64,000 bases of DNA from Deltaproteobacteria bacterium RIFCSPHIGHO2_01_FULL_43_49 (GTDB taxonomy: Bacteria > UBA10199 > SPLOWO2-01-44-7). The stretch spans positions 1,148 through 65,147 of the forward strand of contig MGRG01000005.1 of assembly GCA_001798075.1 (NCBI GenBank). Direction: 5' to 3'. The translations under genes were made by a program, and so were the position numbers. The notes under the pieces were generated by a model. The model searched no databases and had not been told where the DNA came from. It worked only from the letters and a program-made list of their open reading frames with translations. How positions within the stretch are numbered: the stretch's first letter is position 1; every line of letters starts with the position of its first letter. Below are positions 7,006-62,289 of this stretch, piece after piece.

Positions 7006-7953
7006 ATGGGGCTTCATATTGGCCAGGCAACAGCCATCACATTAAAAACGATGCCGTATCTTTTCTTGCGATTGGTAGTCTACGGTCTCTTTGGCATCGC
7101 AACGGTTATCTATTTTGTTGTCGTCTATTTTGTCGCAGGCTGGGTAGCCCCCTTGCACGAATATGCAGAACCCGGAGTTTGGATTTTAGCCCTGCTAGCC
7201 CCCACACCGATCGTTAGTTTTATCCGTGAATATATTCTCTACACCGTCAAGGCGGGTCATGTGGCCGTCATTGCGGAGCTAGCCACCAAAGGAAAACTCC
7301 CCGAAGGGAAGGGCCAGATTGCTTGGGGCAAAGATCAGGTTGTGAGAACATTCAAATCAACTTCTGTTTTGTTTTTAGTCGACCGTTTGGTTCATGGGGT
7401 GATCAGCGCTATCAACAACGGCATTACAAAAATAGGTGACGTCGCATCGGGCATTCCGGGTGTGCGAGGCTTGATGCAATTCATTAATCTCATTTTGTAT
7501 TTTAGTCTCACCTATGTGGACGAAGCCATCATGGCCAGAAATTTTTTAAACCCGCAAGAATCGGCCTGGCAGTCTTCCAAAATTGGGCTGATGCTCTACG
7601 CCCAGATTTGGAAAAATATTTTATGGAGTTCTGTTTTCTTGGCTTTCATTGCTTTAACAATCTACGCAGGTCTCGCCATTGTTTTTCTGGTTCCCGCTTT
7701 AGGGTTGGCCGTCGCTTTTCCCTCTATGGATCTTGTTTTTATTATTGGGGCATTGGTTTGTGCCTTTGTGGTTAAATTTGCTCTCTTTGACCCTTGGACG
7801 ATGTCGATGATGGTGGTGATGTATCTCAAAGAGATCGAAGGAAAAGCCCCCAACAAAGAGTGGGAAGAAAAACTCGAAAAACTCTCCGGCAAATTCAAAC
7901 AGATCAAAGAAAAGGCCGTTGAAAAACTTTCGGGGGCTCCCACCCCGGCTTGA
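7006..7953 (+). CDS. hypothetical integral membrane protein
   Basis: The 315 aa product has several hydrophobic helices (LFLRLVVYGLFGIATVIYFVVVYFVAGWV, VFLAFIALTIYAGLAIVFLVPALGLAVAF). A GGAGG Shine-Dalgarno lies upstream at 6995. Confidence 0.5.
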   Translation: MGLHIGQATAITLKTMPYLFLRLVVYGLFGIATVIYFVVVYFVAGWVAPLHEYAEPGVWILALLAPTPIVSFIREYILYTVKAGHVAVIAELATKGKLPEGKGQIAWGKDQVVRTFKSTSVLFLVDRLVHGVISAINNGITKIGDVASGIPGVRGLMQFINLILYFSLTYVDEAIMARNFLNPQESAWQSSKIGLMLYAQIWKNILWSSVFLAFIALTIYAGLAIVFLVPALGLAVAFPSMDLVFIIGALVCAFVVKFALFDPWTMSMMVVMYLKEIEGKAPNKEWEEKLEKLSGKFKQIKEKAVEKLSGAPTPA

Positions 7954-7954
7954 G

Positions 7955-8845
7955 ATGCTAAAACGAAAATTCGGGAAAACTAATCTCGAGGTGACACCCA
8001 TTGGCCTAGGCACCTGGGTTTTTGGGGGTTGGCCCTGGAATGAGATCAATGAAAAAGAGTGCGAAGCGGCTCTTGAAACAGCTATCGGCGCTGGCATTAA
8101 CCTTATCGATACCGCTCCCATTTATGGATTTGGTCGCTCTGAAGAAATTGTTGGCCGAACTTTGAGGCGCCTTAAAGTCAGAGAAAAAATCGTGCTGGCC
8201 ACCAAGCAAGGTTTTAGTTGGGATGACGGCAAAAAAAGAAATGTCCGAAAAGATTGCTCGAAAAAAGCGGTTTTTCGAGAAATCGACGAAAGCTTGAAGA
8301 GATTACAAACCGACTGGATTGATATCTATCAAATTCATTGGCCTGATGAAAACACACCGATTGGTGAAACGATGGAAGCCATGCTGAAATTGAAAGATCA
8401 GGGTAAAATTAAGGTGATCGGTGTTTGCAATTACAATGCGGAGCAAATGAAGGAGTGTTTGAAATACGCACCCCTTGAAAGTTCGCAACCACCCTATAAT
8501 TATTTTCAACGCGACATCGAAAAAGAAATTTTGCCTTTCTGTATCGAACACAAATTTGGAACACTGACTTATGGAACGTTGTGTAAAGGGTTGCTGACAG
8601 GAAAATTCGGCATTGATAAAAAGCCGAACGATCCGGTCCGACAACAAACCTGGGACCCCATTTTTGAGACTAAACGCTACGAAGAATGTTTGGCAGAAAT
8701 TGAAAAACTAAAAAAACAAGCGGCTGAAGAAAATCTCACTGTTGGCCAATGGGTTATTCGCTGGGCGATCAACCAACCCGGAGTCACTTGCGCTTTGGTT
8801 GGGGCTAGAAACCCAAAACAGGTCAAAGAAAATACTACCATATAA
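7955..8845 (+). CDS. aldo/keto reductase
   Basis: The N-terminus MLKRKFGKTNLEVTPIGLGTW and internal GINLIDTAPIYG...IGVCNY motifs are typical of the AKR family. I moved the start to ATG 7955, immediately after the TGA of the upstream gene; the ORF-track start at 7919 overlaps that gene. Confidence 0.85.
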   Translation: MLKRKFGKTNLEVTPIGLGTWVFGGWPWNEINEKECEAALETAIGAGINLIDTAPIYGFGRSEEIVGRTLRRLKVREKIVLATKQGFSWDDGKKRNVRKDCSKKAVFREIDESLKRLQTDWIDIYQIHWPDENTPIGETMEAMLKLKDQGKIKVIGVCNYNAEQMKECLKYAPLESSQPPYNYFQRDIEKEILPFCIEHKFGTLTYGTLCKGLLTGKFGIDKKPNDPVRQQTWDPIFETKRYEECLAEIEKLKKQAAEENLTVGQWVIRWAINQPGVTCALVGARNPKQVKENTTI

Positions 8846-8852
8846 AGATAGT

Positions 8853-8940
8853 AAAAGTAGTGGGTGGCCCGGAGTGTTTGTTGTGGGGTTTTGTTAGGGG
8901 CCCCCACAAAAACACGGAGGGACAGGACCCGCTACTTTTT
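8853..8940. repeat. MITE-like palindromic element, family 1, copy A
   Basis: Terminal inverted repeats AAAAGTAGTGGGT / ACCCGCTACTTTTT flank an internal hairpin GTGTTTGTTGTGGGG...CCCCACAAAAACAC. The element is about 85% identical to the copy at 15005-15093. Confidence 0.6.
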
Positions 8941-8947
8941 CACAATC

Positions 8948-9298
8948 TTATGGCCGTTTGATTTCAACAATTGCGGCGTCGGCGGCTTTAATGGCGGAGG
9001 GTTTGGTGAGTCTGACCAACACCGATTCTACAGGAAATTTGTTTAGACAAAGATCAGCGATGGCTTGGGCTAATGTTTCAATGAGGTGATAAGAATTCTT
9101 CTCAACAAATTTTAAAACATCTTTAGCCAGTTGGTTGTAGTCGAGCATATTTTTGTCCAGAACATCTTTTTTGCAGGCCTCTTCCAAATCAGCGACTAAT
9201 TCTAAATCCAAAATAATTTTTTGTGGGCGTTTACGCTCCCAGTCATAATCACCAATGATACATTTAGTTTTGAGCCCCTTAATTATAATTTTATCCAT
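8948..9298 (-). CDS. folB: dihydroneopterin aldolase
   Basis: The 116 aa product begins MDKIIIKGLKTKCIIGDYDWERKRPQKIILDLEL, the classic FolB fold signature and size. Confidence 0.85.
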   Translation of the reverse strand: MDKIIIKGLKTKCIIGDYDWERKRPQKIILDLELVADLEEACKKDVLDKNMLDYNQLAKDVLKFVEKNSYHLIETLAQAIADLCLNKFPVESVLVRLTKPSAIKAADAAIVEIKRP

Positions 9299-9430
9299 AG
9301 TTCTAAAATTCTAAATCCTAATATCTAAATCCTAAACAAATTCTAAATTCTAATGTTCTAAACGAAAACAAATTGTTTGGAATTTTGAATTTTGAACATT
9401 AGATATTGTTTAAAATTTAGTATTTAGTGC
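9299..9430. repeat. AT-rich low-complexity tandem/inverted repeats (TTCTAAA / TCCTAAA units)
   Basis: Directly visible in the sequence: ttctaaaattctaaatcctaatatctaaatcctaaacaaattctaaattctaatgttctaaa, followed by its imperfect inverse tttgaacattagatattgtttaaaatttag. A related motif recurs, inverted, at 55359-55393. Confidence 0.5.
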
Positions 9431-13518: not shown

Positions 13519-13989
13519 ATGGCAAATAAAGAAATTATGGAAGGAGATGCAGCACCCGATTTTAAATTACCCGCGAATAATGGGGGAGAGGTCAGCCTAA
13601 CTAGTCTTAAAGGGAAATGGGTCGTTCTTTATTTTTATCCAAAAGACGATACCCCTGGCTGTACAAGAGAGGCTTGTAATTTCCGCGACACCAAAACAAA
13701 ATGGACCAAAAAAGGAGCAGTGGTTTTAGGGGTCAGTAAAGACAATGCTGCCTCTCACCAAAAATTCATCGATAAATATAATCTCAATTTTCTTTTACTC
13801 TCCGACATCGATGGGAAAGTGATCGAAAAATATGGGGCCTTCAAAAAGAAAAGCATGTTCGGAAAAACATTTTTAGGAATTAACCGCTCTACTTTTTTAA
13901 TCAACCCCGAAGGAAAAATCCAAAAAATTTGGCGCAGCGTCAAAGTCGACGGGCATGAAGAAGAGGTGTTAAAGGAAATTGGCGGTTGA
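13519..13989 (+). CDS. bcp: peroxiredoxin Bcp (thiol peroxidase)
   Basis: VVLYFYPKDDTPGCTREAC is the Bcp/PrxQ active-site motif. The gene is preceded by a GGAGG Shine-Dalgarno. Confidence 0.9.
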   Translation: MANKEIMEGDAAPDFKLPANNGGEVSLTSLKGKWVVLYFYPKDDTPGCTREACNFRDTKTKWTKKGAVVLGVSKDNAASHQKFIDKYNLNFLLLSDIDGKVIEKYGAFKKKSMFGKTFLGINRSTFLINPEGKIQKIWRSVKVDGHEEEVLKEIGG

Positions 13990-14997
13990 GTTTCCTATCC
14001 GTACTTCCTTAAGACTTAAAGAGGCATAACGAATATAACCTAGTGCAATAGGACTGCTGAATTTCGGTGAAAAGCAGCTTGAAGTGACGGTCCCAATTTC
14101 TTGGCCATCTTCTGAAAAAATCTTTTCTCCCCTTTGTGGGATTTTATCACCTTCCAATTTCAATGATCTTAACTGTTTTCCAACATGTCCTCGGTGCTCC
14201 AACCTTGCAATCACCTCTTGACCCACATAACAACCTTTGTTGAAGCTCAGCGCCGTATAGAGATTAGCTTCCTGCGGAATCGTATTTTCATCCATATCAA
14301 CACCAAACAAGGGCGTGGCCGATTCGATGCGAAGGACTTCTTGGGTTTCTGGATCCAACTCTGGAACGTTCAGTTTTGATTTTAAACTGGGTAGTTGATC
14401 ACGAGCCACCCACATTTCAAACGCCGGCAAACCCCACATTGTTTTTCGAATCATCCAAATTTTAAACCCCTCCCACTCCACGAAATCGTAATCATAATTT
14501 GCACGGAGAGAAAGAGTCGGGTCCTGCCCCTCCGTGTTGCCATGGGGGCCCCTAACAAAACCCCATGGCCAACACTGCGGGTCACCCAACCCTTTCTCTC
14601 CATTCACTTTGGGTCCAATCACCGCACAAGTCCCCCATTTGTCTGTCTGATCAAACAATTCCACTTTTTGAAAAATGATATATTTTTTGAGCGTTTCTAA
14701 AAGAGTCAGTTTGAGTTTCGAGCTACAATCAATCCCAAAATAGTTTTCGCTGCGCCCGCCAGGTTGTAGTGGAGGGCAGTTATAACAAAATAAGTCGGCA
14801 ATCATTTTCCCTTTGGGTGTGCAAAGACAGGAGTAGCAACCTGTTTTGGGCTGGAGAGTCTGAATATTGTTGGTGAGAATGCCGTTTAAAAATTTTTTAG
14901 AATCGCCCCCCTTCACTTCAACCCAACAACGATCAGATAGATCCACAAGACCCATATTTTGTGTAACTTGATTGTATATTTCTGAATGCATGTTCAA
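13969..14997 (-). CDS. folate-binding YgfZ-like / aminomethyltransferase (GcvT) family protein carrying an in-frame repeat-derived insertion
   Basis: The C-terminal KGCYVGQE motif is typical of YgfZ/GcvT. The internal segment GLGDPQCWPWGFVRGPHGNTEGQDPTLS is encoded by a copy of repeat family 1. Confidence 0.65.
   Translation of the reverse strand: MNMHSEIYNQVTQNMGLVDLSDRCWVEVKGGDSKKFLNGILTNNIQTLQPKTGCYSCLCTPKGKMIADLFCYNCPPLQPGGRSENYFGIDCSSKLKLTLLETLKKYIIFQKVELFDQTDKWGTCAVIGPKVNGEKGLGDPQCWPWGFVRGPHGNTEGQDPTLSLRANYDYDFVEWEGFKIWMIRKTMWGLPAFEMWVARDQLPSLKSKLNVPELDPETQEVLRIESATPLFGVDMDENTIPQEANLYTALSFNKGCYVGQEVIARLEHRGHVGKQLRSLKLEGDKIPQRGEKIFSEDGQEIGTVTSSCFSPKFSSPIALGYIRYASLSLKEVRIGNSTANFL
14519..14596. 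repeat. family-1 palindromic element, degenerate copy B, inside a CDS
   Basis: gggtcctgcccctccgtgttgccatgggggcccctaacaaaaccccatggccaacac aligns to the reverse complement of the copy A/C cores. The terminal inverted repeats are degraded. Confidence 0.5.
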
Positions 14998-15004
14998 AAA
15001 AAAT

Positions 15005-15093
15005 TAAAAAGTGGCGGGTGGCCCGGAGTGTTTGTTGTGGGGTTTAGTTAGGGGCCCCCACAAAAACACGGAGGGACAGGACCCGTTACTTTT
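15005..15093. repeat. MITE-like palindromic element, family 1, copy C
   Basis: aaaaagtggcgggtggcccggagtgtttgttgtggggtttagttaggggcccccacaaaaacacggagggacaggacccgttacttttt is near-identical to copy A. Confidence 0.6.
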
Positions 15094-15148
15094 TACTCCA
15101 CTCATATCCTTGTTTTCTACACTGTTTTCCGTTAAATCGTCAACGTTC

Positions 15149-16655: not shown

Positions 16656-16919
16656 TAGCATCAGCTTTAGCAGACGTCAACAAAGGGAAAATCACCAATA
16701 ACCAAAATCCAAGTTCCAGATAAATTCCAATTACCAAACACCGGTAACCAAACATTGTTTCATTAATTGGTTATTGGGCATTGGTTATTGTTTGGTGTTT
16801 GAAATTTGGTGATTGGTTATTTGGCTTCTTTTACTTTTAAGATTCAGTTTCTTTCATTATTGGTAATTGATTATTGGTGATTATTTGGTTATTGGTAGTT
16901 GGTGATTGGTAATTAAACG
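16656..16919. promoter_or_regulatory. divergent intergenic region filled with TTGGTAATTGG / GGTTATTGG direct and inverted repeats
   Basis: The repeats are directly visible: accaataaccaaa...ccaattaccaaacaccggtaaccaaa...ttggttattgggcattggttattgtttggtg...ttggtaattgattattggtgattatttggttattggtagttggtgattggtaatt. Confidence 0.4.
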
Positions 16920-29043: not shown

Positions 29044-29328
29044 ATGAAAACATTTCTTTCTTTTCTAGTAGTGGGGTTGCTCGGCGCTACCGCTCAAGCA
29101 GCCGGTGCAGATGGCGCAGCCCTTTTCAAGGCCAAGATGTGTGGGGCCTGCCACGCCGAAGGGAAAAAGGGGGGCGATCTCAAAAATTCCACATTGGATA
29201 AGGCGACCATGGTCCAGTTCCTGAAGGATCCCAAGGCCATGAGGCCAAAGACGACCAAGACCCCCGTAAAGGCAACGGATGAAGAATTGAGCGCCTTGGC
29301 CGATTATGTTATCAGTTTACGGAAATAA
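29044..29328 (+). CDS. small monohaem cytochrome c (paralog of 38011-38289)
   Basis: The product has a signal peptide, a single CGACH motif and a C-terminal amphipathic helix, 94 aa in total. A GGAGG Shine-Dalgarno lies upstream. Confidence 0.8.
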   Translation: MKTFLSFLVVGLLGATAQAAGADGAALFKAKMCGACHAEGKKGGDLKNSTLDKATMVQFLKDPKAMRPKTTKTPVKATDEELSALADYVISLRK

Positions 29329-29351
29329 TCGTCCCTTTAAACTATTAAGCT

Positions 29352-32072
29352 ATGGCACTCAGGAAGATCCTTCTTGTTTTTGGGAGTGTCTTGTTGTGGA
29401 CACTTCTCACCGGCGCTAACAAGACAGAGGACTGCCTGACATGCCATGAAGACAAGGCTCAATATAAAGAGTCTGTTCACGGGAAATATACCTGCTTTGA
29501 GTGCCATGCCGATCTGGCCAATGTGGCCCTGCCCCATGAAGCCGTCAAACCGGTTTCCTGTGTCCGCTGCCACACTCAAGTTGCCAATGTCTACCAACAA
29601 AGTTTGCACGGCAAAGCTGTCCAGGCGGGAGAAAAACTGGCACCCAAATGCCAAGACTGCCACGGAAGCCATGACATTAGTCTCGTCCGATCGCCCCATT
29701 CTAAAGTAGCCAAGTTTAACGTCCCCTTTGTGTGTGGTAGGTGTCACAAAGAGGGGAGCGAAGTCACCCAGACCTACGACATCCCCCAAGAAAAAATCCT
29801 GGAACACTATTCGGAAAGTATTCATGGCGAAGGGTTGTTCAAACAGGGATTGACAGTCACCGCTGTTTGCACCGATTGCCATACCGCTCACAACATTCGT
29901 TCCCATACCGATCCCCAATCCTCCATTTTCAGGGACAATGTTCCAAAAACCTGCCAGAAATGCCACGGACTCATCGAACGGGTTCACCGAAAGGTAATCC
30001 GGGGAGAATTGTGGGAAAGGGAACCCAACAAAGTTCCAATTTGTGTCGATTGTCACTCCCCGCACAAGATCCGCAAGGTTTTTTACGAACTCGGGATGGC
30101 GGATCATGACTGCCTGGAGTGTCATAGCAAACTTGATATTTCAACTACGCGTAATGGAAAAACGGTCTCTCTTTTTGTTGACGCAACGCAAGTGAAAGAA
30201 TCCATTCACAACAAGGTGGCTTGTGCCCAGTGTCATACGGGTGTCTCTCCAGTGGAAAAAAGGCCCTGTGCAACGATTACCACCAAGGTCGATTGTTCGA
30301 TTTGCCATGCGGAGCAAGTTCAAACCTATGTAACCAGCAAACATGGCCAACTCAGCTCTGAAGGAGATCCCAACGCCCCTGTTTGTCAGGACTGCCACTC
30401 TCCTCACTCCGCGAAAGGACATCGTGACCCTCAGTCCCCGACGTTTCCCACGAAAATACCTGAACTTTGTGGACAGTGCCACCGAGAAGGCAAGAAAGCA
30501 GCCATCCGTTATACTGGGGAAGAACGTCAGGTTGTGGAACACTATATGGAGAGTATTCACGGCAAAGGGTTGTTAAAAAGCGGCCTGGTCGTGACGGCCA
30601 TGTGCACCAACTGCCATACCGCCCATCATGAACTTCCTGCGAGTGATCCTCAGTCCAGCGTTCACCATGACAATATTGCAAAGACTTGTGCCCAATGTCA
30701 CAACGGAATTTATGAACAGTTTGTGAAAAGTGTTCATAGCCCAACCATCACCAAGACAGACAAAAAACTGCCGGTCTGCAGTGATTGCCACACCGCCCAC
30801 ACCATCAGCCGAACCGATGTAGAAGCTTTTAAACTGGAAATTATCAATCAGTGCGGTCAGTGCCATGAAGCGGTCGCCAAAACCTATTTTGAAACCTTCC
30901 ATGGAAAGGTTTCAAAACTTGGCTACACCACCGTTGCGAAATGTTATGACTGCCATGGGGCCCACGATATTCTCCCCCCATGGGATCCCAAATCGAGGCT
31001 CTCGAGAGCCAACATCGTCAAGACCTGCGGTAAATGTCATGAAGGCTCCCACAGAAGGTTTGCCGGATACCTAACCCACGCCACACACCATGATCCCGAC
31101 AAGTACCCGATTCTTTATTACACCTTTTGGTTTATGTCCTTCCTGCTGATCAGTGTCTTTATCTTTTTTGGTCTGCACACCCTCATGTGGTTGCCAAGAT
31201 CGATTAAGGAAAGGAGGCGACGCAAAAAACTGGGGCTCGAATACTCCGGAAAACATGTCGTTCGTTTTAGCAAGCTGGAGCGAAGACTCCATGCCATGGT
31301 CATTATCAGTTTCTTAGGGCTCGTGATAACGGGAATGACACTTAAGTTTTCTTATGCGGGATGGGCCCAGTGGATTTCCAAAGTTTTGGGTGGGTTTGAG
31401 TCAACCGGTTATATCCACCGCATCTGTGCCATCGTCACCTTCTTTTATTTTAGCGCCCATCTGGTCGACCTCGTTCGAAAAAAGAGGAAACTGAAAAAAA
31501 CCTGGAGAGAGTTTTTATTTGGCCCAGACTCGATGATTCCCATGAAGCGGGATTTGAAGGAGTTTTGGGAAACGATGAAATGGTTCGTCGGCAGAGGATC
31601 CAGGCCTATTTATGGACGTTGGACCTACTGGGAGAAGTTCGACTACTTTGCCGTTTTTTGGGGTGTCGCTATCATTGGCTCGACCGGTTTATTGCTCTGG
31701 TTTCCGGAATTTTTTACCCACTTTTTACCGGGCTGGTTTATCAATGTGGCCACCATTATCCACTCCGATGAGGCCTTGCTGGCCGCCGGCTTTATCTTCA
31801 CCATCCATTTTTTTAACACCCATTTCCGCCCGGAAAAATTTCCAATGGACACGGTGATCTTTACCGGCAGAGTTCCCTTAGAAGAGCTGAAAGAAGATCG
31901 CCCACAAGAATATAAAGAGTTGGTCGAATCGGGTGAATTGGAAAAATTATTAGCTCCCCCTCCAACAAAGTTGTTCGTTCGTCGGGCAAAAATTTTCGGG
32001 GCCATTGCGTTGGCAATTGGACTGACGCTGGTTGTGCTCATCATCCTAGCGGAGGTCTTTGGATATCGTTGA
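29352..32072 (+). CDS. giant multihaem cytochrome c (19 CxxCH) fused to a C-terminal HydC/FdnI-type membrane cytochrome b domain
   Basis: I counted nineteen CxxCH motifs in residues 1-590. The C-terminal ~300 aa have four to five TM helices with the b-type cytochrome signature VRFSKLERRLHAMVIISFLGLVITG (R-x-x-ER-x-x-H...TG) and further conserved His residues in the helices. Confidence 0.8.
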   Translation: MALRKILLVFGSVLLWTLLTGANKTEDCLTCHEDKAQYKESVHGKYTCFECHADLANVALPHEAVKPVSCVRCHTQVANVYQQSLHGKAVQAGEKLAPKCQDCHGSHDISLVRSPHSKVAKFNVPFVCGRCHKEGSEVTQTYDIPQEKILEHYSESIHGEGLFKQGLTVTAVCTDCHTAHNIRSHTDPQSSIFRDNVPKTCQKCHGLIERVHRKVIRGELWEREPNKVPICVDCHSPHKIRKVFYELGMADHDCLECHSKLDISTTRNGKTVSLFVDATQVKESIHNKVACAQCHTGVSPVEKRPCATITTKVDCSICHAEQVQTYVTSKHGQLSSEGDPNAPVCQDCHSPHSAKGHRDPQSPTFPTKIPELCGQCHREGKKAAIRYTGEERQVVEHYMESIHGKGLLKSGLVVTAMCTNCHTAHHELPASDPQSSVHHDNIAKTCAQCHNGIYEQFVKSVHSPTITKTDKKLPVCSDCHTAHTISRTDVEAFKLEIINQCGQCHEAVAKTYFETFHGKVSKLGYTTVAKCYDCHGAHDILPPWDPKSRLSRANIVKTCGKCHEGSHRRFAGYLTHATHHDPDKYPILYYTFWFMSFLLISVFIFFGLHTLMWLPRSIKERRRRKKLGLEYSGKHVVRFSKLERRLHAMVIISFLGLVITGMTLKFSYAGWAQWISKVLGGFESTGYIHRICAIVTFFYFSAHLVDLVRKKRKLKKTWREFLFGPDSMIPMKRDLKEFWETMKWFVGRGSRPIYGRWTYWEKFDYFAVFWGVAIIGSTGLLLWFPEFFTHFLPGWFINVATIIHSDEALLAAGFIFTIHFFNTHFRPEKFPMDTVIFTGRVPLEELKEDRPQEYKELVESGELEKLLAPPPTKLFVRRAKIFGAIALAIGLTLVVLIILAEVFGYR

Positions 32073-33834
32073 TATGAGATTGAGAAACAAAATCTTTTTT
32101 GTGACGGCGTTATCAATTTTTTCTTGTTTCGGTTTTTTTTCTGCTCACGCTAACGTCCACGAAGGTCTTGAATGCAATGCCTGCCACTTAGGTGAGAAGG
32201 CTAAAGAAGGGGGCATGCCGCCGGCCAATTGTGTTTCGTGCCATGAAGAAGTCGGCAACCTTTTAAAAAACTCTCCCCATGGTCAGGCCTTTATGGCGCG
32301 ATTCAAAACGCCTACGGCCAGTTGTCTTGCCTGCCATGGAGATCCTCATGAAATTCTAAGTCATCAAGATCCCAACTCCAAAACATCCCGTGTAAATCAG
32401 CCGGCGACTTGTGGCGCTTGCCATGAACATCCTTCCGAAATACCCCCCCATCTTGCAAAAAGAATGCCCATCAAATCTTATTTTATCACCGTTCATGGAG
32501 AGACTGTCCGAAAGGGAAATTTAAACGCTGCCTCCTGTGCCGATTGCCACGGATCCCATGACATCAGACCCCCGGGAGATCCGGCATCCCGGATTTCCCA
32601 TGGACAAATCGTAACGACTTGCGGTCAGTGCCATCAGGAAGAGGCAAAGACATTCGGATCCAGTGTTCACGGTTTGGCTCTGACCCACGGTATGCGAGAG
32701 GCCCCAACTTGTACTGACTGCCATGGAGAACATACCATTCGTTTTCCAGAAGAGATCGCGTCATCCGTTTGGAAAGGGGCCATTACTAAAACCTGTTCCG
32801 GATGCCACTCTTCAGAAAAAATAGCGGCCAAATTCGGTTTGCCCATTGATCGGGTGCAGACCTTCCTGGATTCCTTTCATGGATTGGCGGGACAGTTTGG
32901 CGATTTGAAGGTAGCCAATTGTGCCTCCTGTCACGGTTGGCATGATGTCCTCCCATCCAGTGATCCAAACTCCCGTATCCATCCGCAAAATATTTCACAG
33001 ACTTGTGGTCAGTGTCACCCTCATGCCGGTGTGGTACTGACTTCCGGAAAAATTCATACGTCACTATCCAAGAAGGGTGAGGGAAGTTCTATTGCTGGCA
33101 TCATACGGTCCATCTATTTAATCTTGATCCCTCTGCTGATTGCAGCCATGTTTCTTCACAACCTTGCCGACTTCTTAAGAAAGGCCCTTGCACGAACCTC
33201 TTCAGTATCCATTCATGAAGATGAAATTTTACTGACCTCTTCCGAACGTCTTCAACATGGAGGGCTTGTCCTTTCCTTTGTGTTATTGGCCTACAGTGGA
33301 TTTGCACTGGAATATGCAAACGCCTGGTGGGCCTTGCCCTTTCAACTCTTAGGGGGAGAAGAGACAAGGCGCAATATTCACCGCGTGGCGGCTTTCATTT
33401 TTATTCTCGTCAGTTTTTTCCATATTTGGTACCTTTTCCTTACGAAAGAGGGACGCACAAGATTTAGAGCGATTCTTCCGGAAAGACGTGACTTGTCGGA
33501 TCCATTCAAGATGATTCTTTTTAACTTGGGGCTGCGTCGGGAACGACCCATATTGAAGCGCTTTTCCTACATTGAGAAAGCGGAGTATTGGGCGCTGGTT
33601 TGGGGCTCCATGATCATGGTTTTGACCGGTGCACTCTTGTTTTTTCACAATTTTGCGCTGACGACGTTTCCTCTATGGGTGATCGAGGTTTCCAGGGTTA
33701 TTCATTTTCTGGAAGCTGTTTTGGCGACTTTGGCCATTGTTGTCTGGCATTTTTATTGGGTCTTGTTTGATCCGGATGTTTATCCCATGAACTGGGCTTG
33801 GTTGACGGGACGAAAAAAACGACCTCCAAAATAA
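32059..33834 (+). CDS. multihaem cytochrome c (10 CxxCH) fused to a HydC/FdnI-type cytochrome b domain; paralog of the previous gene
   Basis: Ten CxxCH motifs precede a C-terminal TM domain (RLQHGGLVLSFVLLAYSGFALEY, HRVAAFIFILVSFFHIWYLF, IHFLEAVLATLAIVVWHFYW). The gene overlaps the upstream gene by 14 nt. Confidence 0.8.
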   Translation: MDIVDMRLRNKIFFVTALSIFSCFGFFSAHANVHEGLECNACHLGEKAKEGGMPPANCVSCHEEVGNLLKNSPHGQAFMARFKTPTASCLACHGDPHEILSHQDPNSKTSRVNQPATCGACHEHPSEIPPHLAKRMPIKSYFITVHGETVRKGNLNAASCADCHGSHDIRPPGDPASRISHGQIVTTCGQCHQEEAKTFGSSVHGLALTHGMREAPTCTDCHGEHTIRFPEEIASSVWKGAITKTCSGCHSSEKIAAKFGLPIDRVQTFLDSFHGLAGQFGDLKVANCASCHGWHDVLPSSDPNSRIHPQNISQTCGQCHPHAGVVLTSGKIHTSLSKKGEGSSIAGIIRSIYLILIPLLIAAMFLHNLADFLRKALARTSSVSIHEDEILLTSSERLQHGGLVLSFVLLAYSGFALEYANAWWALPFQLLGGEETRRNIHRVAAFIFILVSFFHIWYLFLTKEGRTRFRAILPERRDLSDPFKMILFNLGLRRERPILKRFSYIEKAEYWALVWGSMIMVLTGALLFFHNFALTTFPLWVIEVSRVIHFLEAVLATLAIVVWHFYWVLFDPDVYPMNWAWLTGRKKRPPK

Positions 33835-35552
33835 ACTTGAAACCAGTTGAGAAAAAAATTTCTTGGTGGCGAAGAGCTCTTTATATAATAGGGGTAGACA
33901 CGACTGGCCCAAGTCGTTGGCATGTCCAGCTAAAACCCAGATTTTTTGCCATTCAAGTTTCGATCTTGGGAGTGGTCTTGCTCGCCTTACTCGGGGTCGC
34001 CAAATATTCGGAGAGTCCTTCGTTTTGCAACTCCTGTCATATCATGGAGCCTTACTATAACGCCTGGAAAACCTCGAAACACAACTTCGTGGCCTGTGTC
34101 GAATGTCACTACCCACCAGGCTCCCCTCAGACCGTTCTTTGGAAAAAATTCCAGGCCCTCTCCCAGGTGGTCAAATATGTGACGAGAACTTATTCTTCCA
34201 AACCCTTTGCCGAGATTGAAGATGCCTCTTGCCTTCGCTCGGGTTGTCACTCAACGAGACTTCTTCAAGGAAAAGTGGTTTCTGAGAGGGGAATTAAGTT
34301 TGATCACACTGCTCATATCACAGAGATAAGGCGCGGCAGACAATTGAGATGTGTTTCTTGCCATTCTCAGATTGTGGTCGGAAAACATGTCGAGGTGACT
34401 TATGACACATGTTATCTCTGCCATTTCAAAGGGCGTGGAAAAGGGAGAGACTTTCAACCACTAGGTGGTTGTTTGGGTTGCCACGATCTTCCGACAAAGA
34501 CGTTCCAAATTGGAAATATGGCCTACAATCATAAAGATTTTGTAACGAAGCAAGGGATTGCCTGTCAGAATTGTCATCTGGATGTGGTTTGGGGTGAGGG
34601 CGATGCCTTGCAAGATCGTTGTTTTACTTGCCACAATCAACCTGAGAAATTGGCCCGTTACAATGATATCCCTTTTATTCACGAAAACCATGTCACCAAA
34701 CACAATGTTGCCTGCTTTCATTGTCACCAGGAAATCCGTCATGTAATCGGCGAGGAACCTCTTGGGTCATCCAAGTTGCCCAACTTGAATGCCACTCCCC
34801 CACCCAGCCCGCCCGTTTCTGAAACGCCTGGACCCCATCCCACACTAGCCTTTGATTGTTCTTTCTGCCACCAAGGTAAACATCTAGGCCAACTCGAGAT
34901 GTATTCCGGAAAAGTGGGATCGCTGGGGCTCCCAGAAATTCCAAGCCCCATGTATGTTGCCAATGTTGATTGCATCGGTTGTCATTATCAAGAAATGATT
35001 TTGGACCAAAAAGAAAAGGAATTTCGTGGCACAACATTCAAAGCTTCGGAAGAAGCCTGTATCAAATGCCATGGAGAAAAGTTTAAGGGAATCTGGGAAG
35101 AGACTAAATTAGAGTTACAAATGACACTTTCAAAGATCGAAGAAAAACTAAAGATGGTTCAGAGGGGGGTAAAAACAGAGCAAATCAATCAGGTTGAACG
35201 CTGGATTCACTTTATTCATGCCGCCAAGGGAGAGCATAATATTTATTTGACCTCTTTTATCTTGCGTCAGGCGGATCAAATTCTCTCTGAAGCCCTAGAA
35301 AAGCTCAAAGTAAAAGCCCCTGATCTTTCATCACTTCCCCTTTTGTCGGGTGGTTTTTGTGCAACCATGTGCCATTCAAAAATGGGGGTTCAAGTTCCGC
35401 CGGAAACGGTTCAGGCCTTTGGAAAAACGATGCCCCACAAAATGCACACCGAAACGATGAGCTGTGTGACCTGTCATGATCTGGGTGGCCATAAAGAAGT
35501 CCCATTAAAAAAGGAGATCAAACCCTTCTGCGAAGGCTGTCATGCCCTATAA
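33798..35552 (+). CDS. NapC/NirT/NrfH-family membrane-anchored multihaem cytochrome c (~15 haems)
   Basis: An N-terminal TM helix is followed by CNSCHIM...CVECH, the NapC/NrfH start with a Met ligand. There are thirteen canonical CxxCH motifs plus CLRSGCH (CX4CH) and CATMCH (CX3CH). Confidence 0.7.
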   Translation: MVDGTKKTTSKINLKPVEKKISWWRRALYIIGVDTTGPSRWHVQLKPRFFAIQVSILGVVLLALLGVAKYSESPSFCNSCHIMEPYYNAWKTSKHNFVACVECHYPPGSPQTVLWKKFQALSQVVKYVTRTYSSKPFAEIEDASCLRSGCHSTRLLQGKVVSERGIKFDHTAHITEIRRGRQLRCVSCHSQIVVGKHVEVTYDTCYLCHFKGRGKGRDFQPLGGCLGCHDLPTKTFQIGNMAYNHKDFVTKQGIACQNCHLDVVWGEGDALQDRCFTCHNQPEKLARYNDIPFIHENHVTKHNVACFHCHQEIRHVIGEEPLGSSKLPNLNATPPPSPPVSETPGPHPTLAFDCSFCHQGKHLGQLEMYSGKVGSLGLPEIPSPMYVANVDCIGCHYQEMILDQKEKEFRGTTFKASEEACIKCHGEKFKGIWEETKLELQMTLSKIEEKLKMVQRGVKTEQINQVERWIHFIHAAKGEHNIYLTSFILRQADQILSEALEKLKVKAPDLSSLPLLSGGFCATMCHSKMGVQVPPETVQAFGKTMPHKMHTETMSCVTCHDLGGHKEVPLKKEIKPFCEGCHAL

Positions 35553-35559
35553 GTTTTCC

Positions 35560-36729
35560 TTAAGAGGCAAGTTGGCGCTCCTTTTCGAACGGCGGCAGCA
35601 CTTTAACAAGGAAATAGAGTAAAACAAAAGGGAGGGCAAAAATCAGCATGGCCGGAAGGATCCCTTCTTTTGCCAGAAATTCGGGGTGAAAATCTCTTAG
35701 CCCCCTTAGGCTCTTCGACATGATTTGTCCGCCGATGACGACATTCCAACGCATGGCAAAGACCTGAATGAGCAAAAGGATTGAGGCAAAGAAGGTAAGA
35801 CTGTTTCGAACTTTGGGGTGCAAGTATTTATCCAGCAAAACGGTCACCATCAAAAGGATAAAGGGAATGAGAGATCCCAAAACCATTTGGACCGAGATGA
35901 ATGAGAAGGCAAGTTTGGTGGTAAGAAGCGGGGCGATGATCTCCCAAGCCTCGTTTCTTTCATAACTCAACGTAATGATTTCCAAGAGTTCCAATGTCAC
36001 GGTTTGGATCTGGAAATACCAGAGCCACCTGGCCAACCCTCGAACACAATCTTGACTCACCTCTGTGCCACGAAAAATCGCCATGAGTTGATAAAGGATG
36101 ATCAGAAGGGCAATCCCCGAGACAACGGCTGAAAACAAAAAAATGATCGGCATCAAAGGAGTGGACCACCAAGGGTTTGCCTTGACGGCGCCAAAGAGAA
36201 AACCGACATAGCCGTGCAAAAGACAAGCGGAAGGAATTCCAATCGTTGCCAAAATGGTGATTACTTTATGATCTGTCTTGATGGCTTCGTCACTAACATC
36301 ATAAACTCCCAGTGTAAGAATACGATAAGGCAGCGCTCGAATTCCTTTATAGGTGGTTGCAAAATGGACAATGTCTTTTCTAAAAACCAACCAGATTTCT
36401 AAAATCAGGACAACAAGATAACTGGTGTAGAGAATCCCAAATCCGGCCATGGCGGAGGAAAAGTTGGGGGTAATCATAATATTGAGAGCTCTCTCCGGAT
36501 GCCCCAGGTGATTAAGCAGTGGCAGTGTTGCGCACAAAAGGAAGGCCAGTGAAGTCAAAAGTGCGAAACGTCCGATCGGTTGATACTCTTTTTTTTGAAA
36601 AACATGATAGAAAGAGGAAACAATGAAAGCACCGGCAACAAGACCGGTGATGTAGGGATACATGACAATCATAATGCTCCAATGGATGTGAATGTCGTTT
36701 GGAAAAGTATATTGCAGGTATGGGAGCAT
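35560..36729 (-). CDS. NrfD/PsrC-family polytopic membrane quinone-interacting subunit
   Basis: The 389 aa product has eight to ten TM helices, with a size and hydrophobicity pattern like NrfD/PsrC/ActC. It is co-oriented and contiguous with the FeS subunit gene. Confidence 0.75.
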   Translation of the reverse strand: MLPYLQYTFPNDIHIHWSIMIVMYPYITGLVAGAFIVSSFYHVFQKKEYQPIGRFALLTSLAFLLCATLPLLNHLGHPERALNIMITPNFSSAMAGFGILYTSYLVVLILEIWLVFRKDIVHFATTYKGIRALPYRILTLGVYDVSDEAIKTDHKVITILATIGIPSACLLHGYVGFLFGAVKANPWWSTPLMPIIFLFSAVVSGIALLIILYQLMAIFRGTEVSQDCVRGLARWLWYFQIQTVTLELLEIITLSYERNEAWEIIAPLLTTKLAFSFISVQMVLGSLIPFILLMVTVLLDKYLHPKVRNSLTFFASILLLIQVFAMRWNVVIGGQIMSKSLRGLRDFHPEFLAKEGILPAMLIFALPFVLLYFLVKVLPPFEKERQLAS

Positions 36730-37553
36730 TAACGTGTCTCCTTATCGAAACCTAAATAGTAGCATCTCGGTTTTGTCAGTTTTTCGGGTTGTAGGACTGC
36801 AATATGTTCTTCCGTTACAATTTTGCGGATAGGGTCACGTTCGTTATTCATGTCGCCGAACAATCTGGCCCCTGTGGGACAGGCCTCCACGCAAGCCGGC
36901 TTTAAACCTTTTGTGATTCGATGATAACACCAGGTACATTTTTCAGCCGTTCTGGTGAGAGGATTAATAAAGCGACTTCCGAAAGGACAGGCTTGGACAC
37001 AATAGCCGCAACCGATGCAGCGCTTGCTGTCGACCAAAACCGCTCCGTCTTGGTTGGTATAAGAAGCCCCAACGGGACAGACCTGTGAGCAAGGGGTATT
37101 GGCACAGTGGTTGCAAAGCTTTGGAACAAAATAAGATTTGGAGACGTTGAATCCAGGGGTCATCGGTTTGAATCCGTTGATTCCTCCATCAGGAGATTCA
37201 ACAATGACTTCTCCTTTTTCCGAGACCACATAACGTTCGATCCAAGTTCTGAAAAAATGATCGGGAACTTTATTCTCCAGGGCGCAAGCCTTGACACACA
37301 TTCCACAGCCGATGCATTTATTGATGTCGACGACATAGGCAAAGAGGTGTTCGCTCGGATCATAGTTTGTCCCTGGAATCATTCCCAAGGCTTGTTCCGC
37401 CGCTTTTAATGGAGAAACGCGCATCAGACCTACAAAGAGAGCCACACTGGGAGCCATCTTGAGCGCGGAGGTTAAAAATTCGCGCCTCGAAATCGCATCC
37501 TCATCTTCTATTTTTCCCCCATTGGACTGTGGGGCTGATGGCAACTTAAGCAT
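36729..37553 (-). CDS. Tat-exported 4Fe-4S ferredoxin-type subunit (PsrB/NrfC/DmsB-like)
   Basis: The product has a twin-arginine motif SRREFLTS and four Cys clusters (CIGCGMCVKAC, CNHCANTPCSQVCP, CIGCGYCVQACP, CTWC...CVEACP). Confidence 0.85.
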   Translation of the reverse strand: MLKLPSAPQSNGGKIEDEDAISRREFLTSALKMAPSVALFVGLMRVSPLKAAEQALGMIPGTNYDPSEHLFAYVVDINKCIGCGMCVKACALENKVPDHFFRTWIERYVVSEKGEVIVESPDGGINGFKPMTPGFNVSKSYFVPKLCNHCANTPCSQVCPVGASYTNQDGAVLVDSKRCIGCGYCVQACPFGSRFINPLTRTAEKCTWCYHRITKGLKPACVEACPTGARLFGDMNNERDPIRKIVTEEHIAVLQPEKLTKPRCYYLGFDKETR

Positions 37554-37990
37554 ATTTCTTCATTCTCCAAGTTTTTGTCTTTCGAGACGACATGTTCATG
37601 AAAATCGATTTGTGGAAATGTTTTGGGCTTCGCCTCCAATTTTTGGTGACAACGGGCACAAAGGGCAAACGTTTTATGGATGGGCATGGGCTGAACGCCA
37701 TCCTCTGTCACATGCTGGGTTAGAGGGGCATGGCAATCTTGACAAGGAACGGCTGCATGTCTGCCAGCCAATTTTATTTTCCAAACATCGTCATGACATT
37801 CCGCACACGAGTTTGGATTGCCATGCACAATAGGCAAGCTGGCCTGCTCTGCCAAGTTCTCACCCCGGAAATGCCCATACAACCCAAAACTTTTGGGAAT
37901 CAAAAGCGCCCTAACGACAAAAAAGAGAAAGATGGCTGCACCCAAGAGAATAGCCGCACGGATCAAATGTCGGTGGTGTCCTTTGCCCAT
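37508..37990 (-). CDS. membrane-anchored tetrahaem cytochrome c (NrfH/NapC-like or DsrJ-like)
   Basis: An N-terminal TM helix is followed by four CxxCH motifs (CAECH, CQDCH, CARCH, CLSCH) in 160 aa. The gene's 3' end overlaps the start of the FeS-subunit gene. Confidence 0.7.
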   Translation of the reverse strand: MGKGHHRHLIRAAILLGAAIFLFFVVRALLIPKSFGLYGHFRGENLAEQASLPIVHGNPNSCAECHDDVWKIKLAGRHAAVPCQDCHAPLTQHVTEDGVQPMPIHKTFALCARCHQKLEAKPKTFPQIDFHEHVVSKDKNLENEEICLSCHQPHSPMGEK

Positions 37991-38010
37991 GAATCCTTCT
38001 CATCTTTCTC

Positions 38011-38289
38011 TTACTTTCTTAAGCTCAACACATAATCGGCCAAGGCATTAAGCTCTTCATCGGTTGCTTTGACCGCAGGCATGGTGACCTTTGGATTCAC
38101 CGATTTTGGGTCTTTCATAAATTTGACCAACGAGGCCTTATCCATCTTGGAATCTTTGAGATCTCCGCCTTTTTTCCCTGCGGCGTGACAAGCCCCGCAC
38201 ATCTTGGCTTTGAACAGCGCGGCCCCATCAGCCCCCGCGAAGGCCGATCCCGCGACAGCGACTGCTAACAAACAGAGTATGATTTTCAT
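38011..38289 (-). CDS. small monohaem cytochrome c (paralog of 29044-29328)
   Basis: GADGAALFKAKMCGACHAAGKKGGDLKDS...VKATDEELNALADYVLSLRK is about 80% identical to the 29044 product. The start is set at the internal Met with a GGAGGA Shine-Dalgarno; the ORF track extends it to 38370. Confidence 0.8.
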   Translation of the reverse strand: MKIILCLLAVAVAGSAFAGADGAALFKAKMCGACHAAGKKGGDLKDSKMDKASLVKFMKDPKSVNPKVTMPAVKATDEELNALADYVLSLRK

Positions 38290-38366
38290 GACTTCCTCCT
38301 TTTTTAAAAGAATCATAAATGGCAAAAGAGCAATATGAGCCAGATCATTCTTGGGCCTGATCTTTA

Positions 38367-39692: not shown

Positions 39693-39742
39693 ATAAGTGA
39701 ATATTGATACCGCTTTTTAAAGACCGGAGGATATGATTATTA

Positions 39743-40120
39743 TCAGGTCCGTCGGGACCATTGAGAAATTTTTAGGGCGAGAAAACCCCCTCCTCCGATG
39801 AGGAGAACAACTGGCAAAACCCAAACCAGCAAGTTAAAACCTTGGGGTTTGGGTGAAAGCAAAATCCATTCACCATAGCGATCCTCAAAATATTTTAGAA
39901 TTTGCTCTTCGCTCTCACCTTTCCCAAGTTTTTCGCGAATCACCTTCATCATATCTTGGGCCAGTTCCGCCGGCGACTCTGAGATTGGAATTCCCCGACA
40001 AACCGGACAGCGGAGTTGGTCGGCAATTTGGCGTGCCTCCTGGTTTAGGCTTAAATTTGAGGAAACACCCCAGGCAAGCGTGGAAACAAGGAAAAACAAG
40101 AGAGACCTGATTAAAATCAT
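39743..40120 (-). CDS. ccmH: cytochrome c-type biogenesis protein CcmH/NrfF
   Basis: The product has a signal peptide, the LRCPVCRG motif (CcmH LRCxxC) and a C-terminal TM anchor. Confidence 0.75.
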   Translation of the reverse strand: MILIRSLLFFLVSTLAWGVSSNLSLNQEARQIADQLRCPVCRGIPISESPAELAQDMMKVIREKLGKGESEEQILKYFEDRYGEWILLSPKPQGFNLLVWVLPVVLLIGGGGFLALKISQWSRRT

Positions 40121-40164
40121 GAGAAAAGTAAGTTTATTTGCTATAGTACAGCTAAGAGAGATCT

Positions 40165-42669: not shown

Positions 42670-42736
42670 CTGATCCAAATCATGTCCTCATAACTTCCCA
42701 TTTCTGCTATTTTAACCCTCAGATTTTGGAGAGAGA

Positions 42737-44332: not shown

Positions 44333-44338
44333 CACTTT

Positions 44339-62085: not shown

Positions 62086-62289
62086 TCAAAACTGATTTAT
62101 ATCATATCCTCGCCTGATCTTGCGCATAGTCATTCTTTTTGTCCTCCCTTAAAAGTTAACTCATCCCGAACCCCCTTTTTCTAAAGATCCTTAGAATCCA
62201 TGAAAGGGGAGTCGAAAAGGTAGGGTTGGAAACGACTTTGCCTCCCGAACTCGCCAATGTTTTAGTGGCGGGGAAATTGGAAAGGGAAG

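What the first reader, a model, noticed from the sequence alone, without database searches (positions are those of the whole stretch)
14519..14596. A MITE-like palindromic repeat (family 1) inserted in frame inside the YgfZ-like folate-binding gene, contributing a ~26-residue peptide
Copies A (8853-8940) and C (15005-15093) are intergenic, ~88 bp, with 13-14 bp terminal inverted repeats and an internal GTGTTTGTTGTGGGG...CCCCACAAAAACAC hairpin. A degenerate inverted copy lies inside the CDS at 13969-14997 and is translated as GLGDPQCWPWGFVRGPHGNTEGQDPTLS without breaking the frame. In other reading contexts the same element is read through in the ORF track (MAGGPECLLWGLVRGPHKNTEGQDP..., MGAPNKTP...). 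This is reminiscent of Rickettsia palindromic elements (RPEs), which insert in frame into genes.
Basis: seen in the sequence. Interest (0 to 1): 0.7.

Follow-up and report, generated by a model that had tools for sequence, protein, structure and literature searches.

The report
Palindromic repeat inserted in-frame in ygfZ
A roughly 95-base hairpin-forming repeat, present about once per 20-30 kb in contigs of this uncultivated groundwater bacterium, sits in frame inside a folate-binding YgfZ-like gene and adds a floppy surface loop, much as Rickettsia palindromic elements do.

Summary

**Copies.** The window has exactly three copies of one palindromic repeat: A at 8853-8940 (+), C at 15005-15094 (+), and B at 14506-14600 (-).

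**Copy B.** It lies inside an intact GcvT/YgfZ-family gene (13969-14991, -). It reads as about 32 codons, in the same sense as the mRNA. None of 115 homologues has this segment. An AlphaFold2 model is confident everywhere except the insert, which looks like a disordered loop.

**B is not degenerate.** Its full hairpin is kept through paired (compensatory) substitutions. One such pair is unique to B and consists of two synonymous third-codon changes.

**The family.** A metagenome scan recovered about 60 further unique copies. Identical proteins tie some of these contigs to 'Deltaproteobacteria bacterium RIFCSPLOWO2_01_44_7' (Rifle aquifer). All copies share a near-invariant 69-nt asymmetric core. 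The inner and outer stems covary.

**Other coding insertions.** The same family is inserted in frame in PrmA and in a PabB-like gene, and it extends an M23 peptidase at the C-terminus.

**Not found.** No target-site duplication, transposase, Rfam family, or copy outside this lineage turned up.

**Verdict.** This is a new family of a known kind: a small palindromic repeat with RPE-like behaviour. How it moves is unresolved.

The parts
14506..14600 (-). Copy B. This is the whole imperfect hairpin (outer stem, core, inner stem-loop) inside the ygfZ-like CDS, in the same sense as the mRNA. It encodes about residues 131-162 (GEKGLGDPQCWPWGFVRGPHGNTEGQDPTLSL).
   Evidence: The outer stem is 17-20 bp and its only two mismatches are G-T wobbles.
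14519..14587 (-). The 69-nt conserved core of copy B (GGGTGACCCGCAG ... GGAGGGGCAGGACCC).
13969..14991 (-). The host gene: a YgfZ/GcvT-family folate-binding protein of 340 aa, intact on both sides of the insert.
   Evidence: Pfam GCV_T and GCV_T_C. Homologues. PDB relatives 1nrk/1vly YgfZ and GcvT. AF2 pLDDT 91.9 overall, with residues 131-160 at 53-60. The same protein with the insert is in NCBI as OGQ05792.1 and three other accessions.
8853..8940 (+). Copy A. It is intergenic, between the convergent 3' ends of an aldo-keto-reductase-like ORF (7919-8845 +) and a FolB-like ORF (8948-9298 -). The flanks are an A-run and a T-run.
15005..15094 (+). Copy C. It is intergenic, in the divergent spacer between ygfZ and an MFS-transporter-like gene. 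The syntenic spacer in L001 is only 22 nt and has no element.

Best explanation
Copy B belongs to a lineage-specific family of small, non-coding, hairpin-forming repeats, comparable to REPIN, MITE or RPE elements. The family has spread through the genome of an uncultivated Rifle-aquifer 'Deltaproteobacteria' bacterium at roughly one copy per 20-30 kb.

**Shown.**
- One copy landed in a length-variable loop of the YgfZ-like protein.
- Its length keeps the reading frame, and the frame used has no stop codon.
- The gene therefore remains intact, and the repeat is predicted to be translated as a disordered loop of about 32 residues.

**Anatomy of the unit.**
- A 69-nt asymmetric core that is almost invariant.
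- An inner stem-loop.
- A 10-20 bp outer stem whose sequence differs between sub-families but stays complementary.

**Inferred.**
- The folded single strand is the form that matters for propagation or maintenance. A single-stranded DNA intermediate is the likeliest form.
- An enzyme supplied in trans, not yet identified, recognises the conserved core.
- The peptide in YgfZ is a tolerated passenger rather than an adaptation.
- In-frame copies are the survivors of purifying selection against disruptive insertions.
For: **Repeat family.** Three copies in the window and about 60 more unique ones in the metagenome loci.

**One organism for some loci.** The window's YgfZ cluster and FolE cluster are named 'Deltaproteobacteria bacterium RIFCSPLOWO2_01_44_7' in NCBI. 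The PrmA of locus L030 is 100% identical to a protein of that same record.

**Insertion, not ancestral sequence.**
- 115 homologues lack it.
- Syntenic locus L001 has neither B nor C.

**Tolerated.**
- All family-invariant residues are retained.
- The AF2 model has pLDDT 91.9 and pTM 0.90. Only the insert is low, at 53-60, with no secondary structure.
- The identical insert appears in separately deposited records of these Rifle samples in ENA, NCBI and JGI.

**Structure is conserved, not just sequence** (62 copies).
- 91.4% of cells are paired, against 80.3% in shuffles and 41-60% when partners are slid.
- 17 pairs show changes on both sides.
- 13 of 17 outer-stem pairs covary.

**B-specific pair.** The A40-U64 pair occurs in 1 of 62 copies. 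It is CCG to CCA (Pro) and CAC to CAT (His), both synonymous in the ygfZ frame (and direct reading).

**Other in-frame copies.**
- PrmA, L030:4437-5381.
- A PabB-like gene, L037.
- A C-terminal extension of an M23 peptidase, L015.
- All four coding copies carry the TTTTGTTAG loop variant, found in 26 of 62 copies overall. This variant removes a TAG stop in the frames used by three of the four.

**No orientation bias.** Among copies between tandem genes, 9 are sense and 14 antisense relative to the flanking genes, which argues against a strand-specific RNA role.

**Internal-deletion derivatives.** Five short forms lack the inner hairpin, each with a different junction. Their differing junctions are more easily explained by independent deletions than by an ancestral short form.

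**Precedent.** RPEs and other intragenic small repeats are known to give in-frame fusions (PMC10969869). REPINs show compensatory hairpin changes (PMC3116915).
Against: - No mobility was observed. Overlapping loci from different datasets are identical, so there are no filled-versus-empty site pairs.
- No target-site duplication was found.
- No candidate transposase was found in the roughly 450 kb held.
- The core is much better conserved than the outer stems. Simple selfish spread does not fully explain this, and it could mean each copy is under functional constraint.
- Translation of the insert is inferred from the intact ORF only. No peptide evidence exists.
Confidence: 0.8

Rival explanations
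1. The repeat is mainly a host-useful cis-element rather than selfish DNA. It might be a bidirectional terminator or mRNA-stabilising hairpin, or a binding site for a structure-specific protein. On this view the copy in ygfZ would have a regulatory effect on the mRNA.
For: - Most copies fill very short spacers, 10-30 nt from the flanking ORFs.
- Many have an A-run and a T-run around the outer stem.
- The 69-nt core is near-invariant while the stems covary, as in functional structured nucleic acids.
- S2-type copies lie inside a larger repeat with promoter-like and Shine-Dalgarno-like ends.
Against: - There is no orientation bias relative to flanking genes: 9 sense and 14 antisense.
- Copies occur inside coding regions in both orientations.
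- The simple terminator scan does not flag A or C.
- No Rfam family matches.
- The element is absent from the related genome at syntenic sites.
Confidence: 0.12
2. The insertion inactivated ygfZ, and the gene is a young pseudogene that has not yet acquired stop codons.
For: A 32-codon foreign segment with Cys and Trp residues lies in the middle of the protein. No expression data exist.
Against: - The frame is kept for 130 codons before the insert and 178 codons after it.
- All invariant and nearly invariant family residues are present.
- The model is confident on both sides of the insert.
- The site is naturally length-variable, 1-31 aa in homologues.
- Three other genes show the same in-frame outcome.
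Confidence: 0.05
3. It is an assembly artefact: a repeat wrongly joined into the gene.
For: The window comes from a short-read metagenome assembly of a genome with many copies of the repeat.
Against: - The B sequence is unique. Its own stem variants and flanks are not shared with any other copy.
- It is present in an ENA contig (L002, one nucleotide different), in four NCBI protein accessions and in JGI contigs.
- The element is shorter than a typical read pair.
Confidence: 0.01

Closest known systems
Rickettsia palindromic elements (RPEs)
   Same: Both are small palindromic, hairpin-forming repeats dispersed in one lineage. Both are repeatedly found in frame inside unrelated housekeeping genes, at positions compatible with the protein fold (PMC10969869; here).
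   Different: - The host is an unrelated, free-living groundwater bacterium.
- This element is about 95-105 nt, against about 100-150 nt for RPEs.
- Only about 5-6% of the copies seen are coding. The review reports nearly half for the RPE families concerned.
- Several reading frames and both orientations are used.
- No sequence relation to RPEs was tested.
REPINs / REP sequences mobilised by RAYT (TnpA-REP) transposases
   Same: Both are long imperfect hairpins, mostly extragenic, with frequent compensatory changes between arms and a proposed single-stranded DNA intermediate (PMC3116915). S1-type copies even carry GTAG in each arm.
   Different: - Here the conserved part is the centre of the hairpin and the variable part is the ends. 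REPINs are the reverse.
- The core is asymmetric, not two inverted REPs.
- No RAYT gene was found in the sequence held (weak test).
- GTAG is absent from the other sub-families.
Bacterial MITEs (Correia, ERIC, RUP, Nezha, QMITE and others)
   Same: Small size, many copies, inverted-repeat architecture, nested and composite copies, and occasional intragenic in-frame copies.
   Different: No target-site duplication. No related IS element with the same ends. The whole unit, not just its termini, is self-complementary, and the terminal sequences are the least conserved part.

Membership tests
Rickettsia palindromic elements (RPE) | Palindromic repeat predicted to form a stable hairpin | tested here: met
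   Folds of -43 to -47 kcal/mol, z about -5. 91.4% of cells paired across 62 copies.
Rickettsia palindromic elements (RPE) | Recurrent in-frame insertion in unrelated protein-coding genes | tested here: met
   YgfZ, PrmA, a PabB-like gene and the M23 peptidase C-terminus.
Rickettsia palindromic elements (RPE) | Insertion site compatible with the protein fold (surface loop) | tested here: met
   In the AF2 model of YgfZ, only residues 131-160 have low pLDDT (53-60) and they lack secondary structure. The site is length-variable in homologues. In PrmA the insert is in a variable loop.
Rickettsia palindromic elements (RPE) | Sequence homology to an RPE family and occurrence in Rickettsia | tested here: not met
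   The host is 'Deltaproteobacteria bacterium RIFCSPLOWO2_01_44_7'. No direct comparison with RPE sequences was possible. This is therefore an analogue of RPEs, not a member.
MITE | Small (<300 bp), non-coding, multi-copy | tested here: met
   About 95-105 nt. 62 unique copies were aligned. Density is roughly one per 20-30 kb on contigs of 124-474 kb.
MITE | Conserved terminal inverted repeats | tested here: inconclusive
   The ends are always complementary, but their sequence differs between copies and sub-families. The conserved part is internal.
MITE | Target-site duplication | tested here: not met
   No consistent flanking direct repeat was found. The GAA/GAA in S2-type copies is an internal feature, and no empty GGAGCGAAGCTCC hairpin exists in the data.
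MITE | Parent IS or transposase sharing the ends | tested here: inconclusive
   No IS200-like TnpA was found among 1,828 ORFs from about 450 kb. The query was recalled from memory, and the rest of the genome was not available.
REPIN / REP-RAYT | Two inverted REP units with a less conserved spacer, forming a hairpin with compensatory changes | tested here: inconclusive
   The hairpin and compensatory changes are present. The conservation pattern is inverted, with a conserved centre and variable ends.
REPIN / REP-RAYT | Cognate RAYT gene flanked by the repeats | not testable with these tools
   The whole genome is not held. Both scans of the reference genome collection returned nothing.
Known structured RNA (Rfam) | Match to a curated covariance model | tested here: not met
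   The gathering-threshold scan found only a Moco riboswitch elsewhere in the window. The E-value scan gave only chance miRNA hits with E of 0.5 or more.
Terminator-like repeat (e.g. SPRITE) | G+C-rich hairpin immediately followed by a T-run, located downstream of genes | tested here: inconclusive
   Copies A, C and the S1-type copies have A-run/stem/T-run flanks by direct reading. The consensus scan does not call them. Other sub-families lack the T-run.

The most novel reading that the evidence does not exclude
The near-invariant, strand-asymmetric 69-nt core has conserved GGA/GGA and ACAGG internal loops and an apex that pairs only through G-U/G-T wobbles on one strand. It could be the recognition module of an undescribed structure-specific mobilisation or maintenance system acting on a folded single strand. 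That system would tolerate any sequence in the closing stem. It would actively keep the hairpin intact even inside genes, as the paired synonymous changes in ygfZ suggest. On this reading the family would be an ongoing source of new protein loops in a free-living bacterium.
Probability: 0.15. Interest if true: 0.6.

Novelty: new member of a known kind. Interest (0 to 1): 0.42.

Why it matters
In-frame colonisation of housekeeping genes by palindromic repeats is best known from Rickettsia. A 2024 review could only say it is 'conceivable' that this happens in other prokaryotes.

This is a clean, checkable case in an unrelated, free-living, uncultivated groundwater lineage. Three different enzymes are affected, plus one C-terminal extension.

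It also matters for annotation. NCBI names this YgfZ and this PrmA 'hypothetical protein'. Several small 'hypothetical proteins' in NCBI are simply translations of the repeat.

The conservation pattern, with an invariant centre and free but paired ends, gives a concrete handle for finding whatever protein recognises the element.

Tried and rejected
1. **Core inserting into pre-existing hairpins (terminators), with outer stems derived from the target.** Rejected. No empty hairpin with S2 arms exists in about 450 kb. The ygfZ and pabB copies carry 17-20 bp outer stems inside coding sequence.
2. **Short forms as ancestors.** Five short copies lack the inner hairpin, but each has a different junction. 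They are better read as deletion derivatives.
3. **Strand-specific RNA function judged from G-U versus A-C mismatches.** There is an excess of G-T at two positions next to the core: 22 against 3. Outer-stem positions 5-13 show none: 18 against 15. The counts are not independent, so this was not used.
4. **Presence/absence polymorphism between datasets.** Overlapping loci are 100% identical, so there is no information.
5. **Copies outside the lineage.**
   - Two scans of 185,579 reference genomes gave 0 hits, including a loop-independent pattern.
   - Viral contigs gave 0 and plasmids gave 0.
   - Protein searches with element-encoded peptides returned small ORFs named for this lineage, a few unnamed short ORFs, and repetitive proteins that look like chance matches.
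6. **IS200-type transposase among the ORFs of all held sequence.** None found.
7. **S2 flanks as upstream regions of paralogous genes.** Rejected, because the downstream genes are unrelated.

Full report

Yes. The window holds three copies of one repeat.
- The 22-nt pattern GGGGTTTNGTTAGGGGCCCCCA occurs at 8885 (+), 14543 (-) and 15039 (+). None is expected in shuffled sequence.
- A second pattern from the 3' part gives the same three sites.
- Copies A (8853-8940) and C (15005-15094) are 95% identical. Copy B is 79-80% complementary to them over 85-88 nt.
- A covariance model built later from 62 copies, run with filters off, finds only these three in the window. They score 106-111 bits in the sense orientation and 27-31 bits antisense.
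- Each copy folds into one long imperfect hairpin at -43 to -47 kcal/mol, z = -4.5 to -5.3. No shuffle folds as well.

**2. The host gene and the insertion**

Copy B lies in the ORF 13969-14997 (-), with a likely ATG at 14991 and a product of 340 aa.
- The protein has Pfam GCV_T and GCV_T_C.
- It matches solved YgfZ and GcvT structures on both sides of the insert.

The element reads in the sense of the mRNA as ...GPKVN-GEKGLGDPQCWPWGFVRGPHGNTEGQDPTLSL-RANYDYDFV...

Homologues do not have this segment.
- Among 115 homologues, the stretch between GPK and the YDYDFV equivalent is 1-31 residues (mode 16-18), against 37 here.
- None contains an element-type peptide.
- The closest orthologue is 62% identical, and its locus L001 (GCA_023265595.1) is syntenic. 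There the MFS-ygfZ spacer is 22 nt, so copy C is also absent. The model finds no copy in L001.

The gene looks functional.
- All invariant family residues are kept.
- An AlphaFold2 model has mean pLDDT 91.9 and pTM 0.90. Only residues 131-160 are low, at 53-60, with no secondary structure.
- The insert is therefore a disordered loop at a naturally length-variable site.

The insert is unlikely to be an assembly artefact. The same insert appears in an ENA contig that differs by one nucleotide, in four NCBI protein accessions and in JGI contigs.

**3. B is not a degenerate copy**

B differs from A and C in the inner stem. A and C have GTGTTTGTTGTGGGG/CCCCACAAAAACAC. B has GTGTTGGCCATGGGG/CCCCATGGCAACAC. 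It also differs in the outer stem. Every change is matched on the other arm.

Its 17-20 bp outer stem has only two mismatches, and both are G-T wobbles.

The pair A40-U64 is found in B alone, where 61 other copies have G-C. In the ygfZ frame it consists of CCG to CCA (Pro) and CAC to CAT (His). Both are third-position synonymous changes (direct reading). This suggests the hairpin has been maintained after insertion. An unsampled master copy carrying this variant cannot be excluded.

**4. The family**

A metagenome scan with the loop pattern gave 48 loci on long contigs. nhmmer and de-duplication gave about 60 further unique copies.

At least some of these contigs belong to the window's organism.
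- The PrmA of L030 is 100% identical to A2W61_07645 of 'Deltaproteobacteria bacterium RIFCSPLOWO2_01_44_7'.
- The window's YgfZ cluster includes A2W61_00030 (OGQ05792.1) of the same record.
- Assignment of the remaining loci to this organism is inferred, not shown.

Density is about one copy per 20-30 kb.
- 15 exact hits on a 474-kb contig.
- 10 on a 253-kb contig.
- 7 on a 124-kb contig.
- 3 in the 64-kb window.

All copies share a 69-nt core: GGGTGGCCCGGAG-[inner stem]-GGGGTTTWGTTAGGGGC-[inner stem]-GGAGGGACAGGACCC. Most of its columns are at least 90% conserved.

The outer stem is 10-20 bp. Its sequence differs between copies but stays complementary. At positions 8-13 from the core, 89-95% of copies pair, against 45-80% when arms from different copies are combined.

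Counts on a MAFFT alignment of 62 copies:

| Measure | Observed | Shuffled | Partners slid |
|---|---|---|---|
| Cells forming a standard pair | 91.4% | 80.3% | 41-60% |
| Cells changed on both sides | 319 | 106 | 57-86 |

- 17 pairs show a change on both sides: 13 of 17 in the outer helix and 4 of 18 in the inner helix.
- 0 of 500 shuffles reach the observed pairing or covariation score.

Sub-families are visible.
- S1 has AAAAAGTAGT.../...ACTACTTTTT arms.
- S2 has GGAGCGAAGGGGT/ACCCCGAAGCTCC arms with a GAA/GAA internal loop.
- S3 has GGTGGAGTGGT arms.

Five short copies lack the inner hairpin. Each has a different junction, so they look like deletion derivatives.

**5. Other coding copies**

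| Gene | Locus | Orientation and frame | Peptide or position |
|---|---|---|---|
| PrmA | L030:4437-5381 (-) | sense, frame 0 | TTGGVARSVACGVLLGAPTGTRRDRTRSCPH, in a variable loop just before the PGMAFGTG strand; 314 aa against 271-293 in most orthologues |
| PabB / anthranilate-synthase-I-like | L037 | antisense | GGVLSLRVAVGAPNKTPQPTLRATLPF, between the N-terminal and chorismate-binding parts |
| M23 peptidase | L015:5510-6187 | sense, frame 0 | runs through a copy, giving a C-terminal extension |

The family consensus is always open in two frames. Two further frames are open only with the TTTTGTTAG loop variant. All four coding copies have that variant, against 26 of 62 overall. This is as expected if only stop-free insertions survive.

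Most other copies sit in very short spacers, 10-30 nt from the flanking ORFs.

**6. What it is and how it probably works**

The best reading is a lineage-specific, non-autonomous, hairpin-forming repeat. Its coding copies are tolerated passengers, as with Rickettsia palindromic elements.

The covarying stems and the asymmetric, invariant core point to a folded single strand as the form that matters. A trans-acting enzyme would recognise the core.

The following were not found:
- a target-site duplication;
- empty target hairpins;
- a transposase in about 450 kb (weak test);
- presence/absence polymorphism.

Orientation relative to flanking genes is unbiased, with 9 sense and 14 antisense copies. 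This argues against a strand-specific RNA role.

A host-useful role as a terminator or protein-binding site remains possible. The core is far better conserved than the stems, and many copies have A-run/T-run flanks. However, the simple terminator scan does not flag them.

**7. Comparison with what is known**

No Rfam family matches. No copy was found outside this lineage.
- 185,579 reference genomes: 0 hits in two scans.
- Viral contigs: 0 hits.
- Plasmids: 0 hits.
- Billions of predicted proteins: only small ORFs named for this lineage, a few unnamed short ORFs, and repetitive proteins that look like chance matches.

| Known kind | How this element compares |
|---|---|
| RPE | Behaves like one, but is not a member (different host; no sequence comparison possible) |
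| REPIN | Shares hairpin covariation, but the conservation pattern is inverted |
| MITE | Fails the target-site-duplication test |

**8. Verdict**

It is a new family of a known kind. It is moderately interesting as a documented RPE-like case in a free-living uncultivated bacterium, and because of its unusual conservation pattern.

Noticed in passing
window 62152-62303 (+): A Moco/tungsten riboswitch aptamer (RF01055), scoring 52.6 bits against a gathering score of 36.
   Followed up: no
window 62326-62380 and 62785-62839: Two 98%-identical copies of a 55-nt unit that ends in the G+C-rich palindrome AGAGGGGGCCCAGCGGGCCCCCTCT, just downstream of the riboswitch. This may be a second repeat family or a duplicated terminator (D9, I21).
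   Followed up: no
window ~29100-45800: Many diverged direct and inverted repeats built on TGY-N6-TGYCAY codon patterns (CxxCH). They suggest several paralogous multihaem cytochrome genes (D1, D2, D5-D7, D11, I1). This was not checked with Pfam.
   Followed up: no
window 14749-14778 (-), YgfZ residues ~72-81: A second, shorter extra loop (PPLQPGGRSE) in the same protein. It is shared in part with two orthologues (P0010, P0011) and is not related to the repeat. pLDDT is about 73.
   Followed up: partly
L002:~490 (equivalent to window ~14576): The ENA contig from another record of these samples differs from the window by one base. It lies inside the element in ygfZ (GACCCG to GACACG). The change is Pro to Thr, and it breaks one pair of the middle helix.
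   Followed up: partly
L012, L022, L047, L048, L050 (S2-type copies with ~170 nt flanks): S2-type copies sit inside a larger repeat of about 300 nt.
- The left part is conserved and contains a promoter-like TTGACT...CACAAT and its own CGAACTATAG/CTATAGTTCG hairpin.
- A TGCGAAAAAYGC/GCRTTTTTCGCA outer palindrome surrounds the copy.
- The right end is GGAGAAGAATTT, directly before the ATG of an ornithine-carbamoyltransferase-like gene in L022.
- The downstream genes are unrelated to each other.
   Followed up: partly
L020:~9000-9180, L010:~230-420: Nested copies: an S3-type element lies between the two arms of an S2-type stem (GGGGCGAAGGGGTGGCC ... AACCCCGAAGCTCC). Elements therefore occur inside one another.
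   Followed up: partly
L003:4902, L006:957, L007:7626, L017:3065, L029:7475: Short forms of the element, 19-25 nt between the arms, that lack the inner stem-loop. Each has a different junction.
   Followed up: yes
P0134 (PrmA orthologue), P0006 and P0007 (YgfZ orthologues): Orthologues from other MAGs carry unrelated extra segments at other positions. Examples are KSVVENAGPARSKRCVSPKRGPSHPLLLSPAFSTTSM in P0134 and CNLPAGRQGRGLGGGR in P0006. These could be in-frame repeats of other families.
   Followed up: no
window 9306-9369 and 16766-16914: A+T-rich short tandem-like repeats in two spacers: AAATTCTAAATCCTAA... and ATTGGTTATTGG... (D3, D15).
   Followed up: no
P0164-P0169, P0175, P0177: Several 59-149-aa 'hypothetical proteins' annotated in NCBI or JGI, and the N-terminus of a 448-aa ORF, are largely translations of this repeat. 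Those with a source name belong to this lineage. They are likely mis-annotations.
   Followed up: partly
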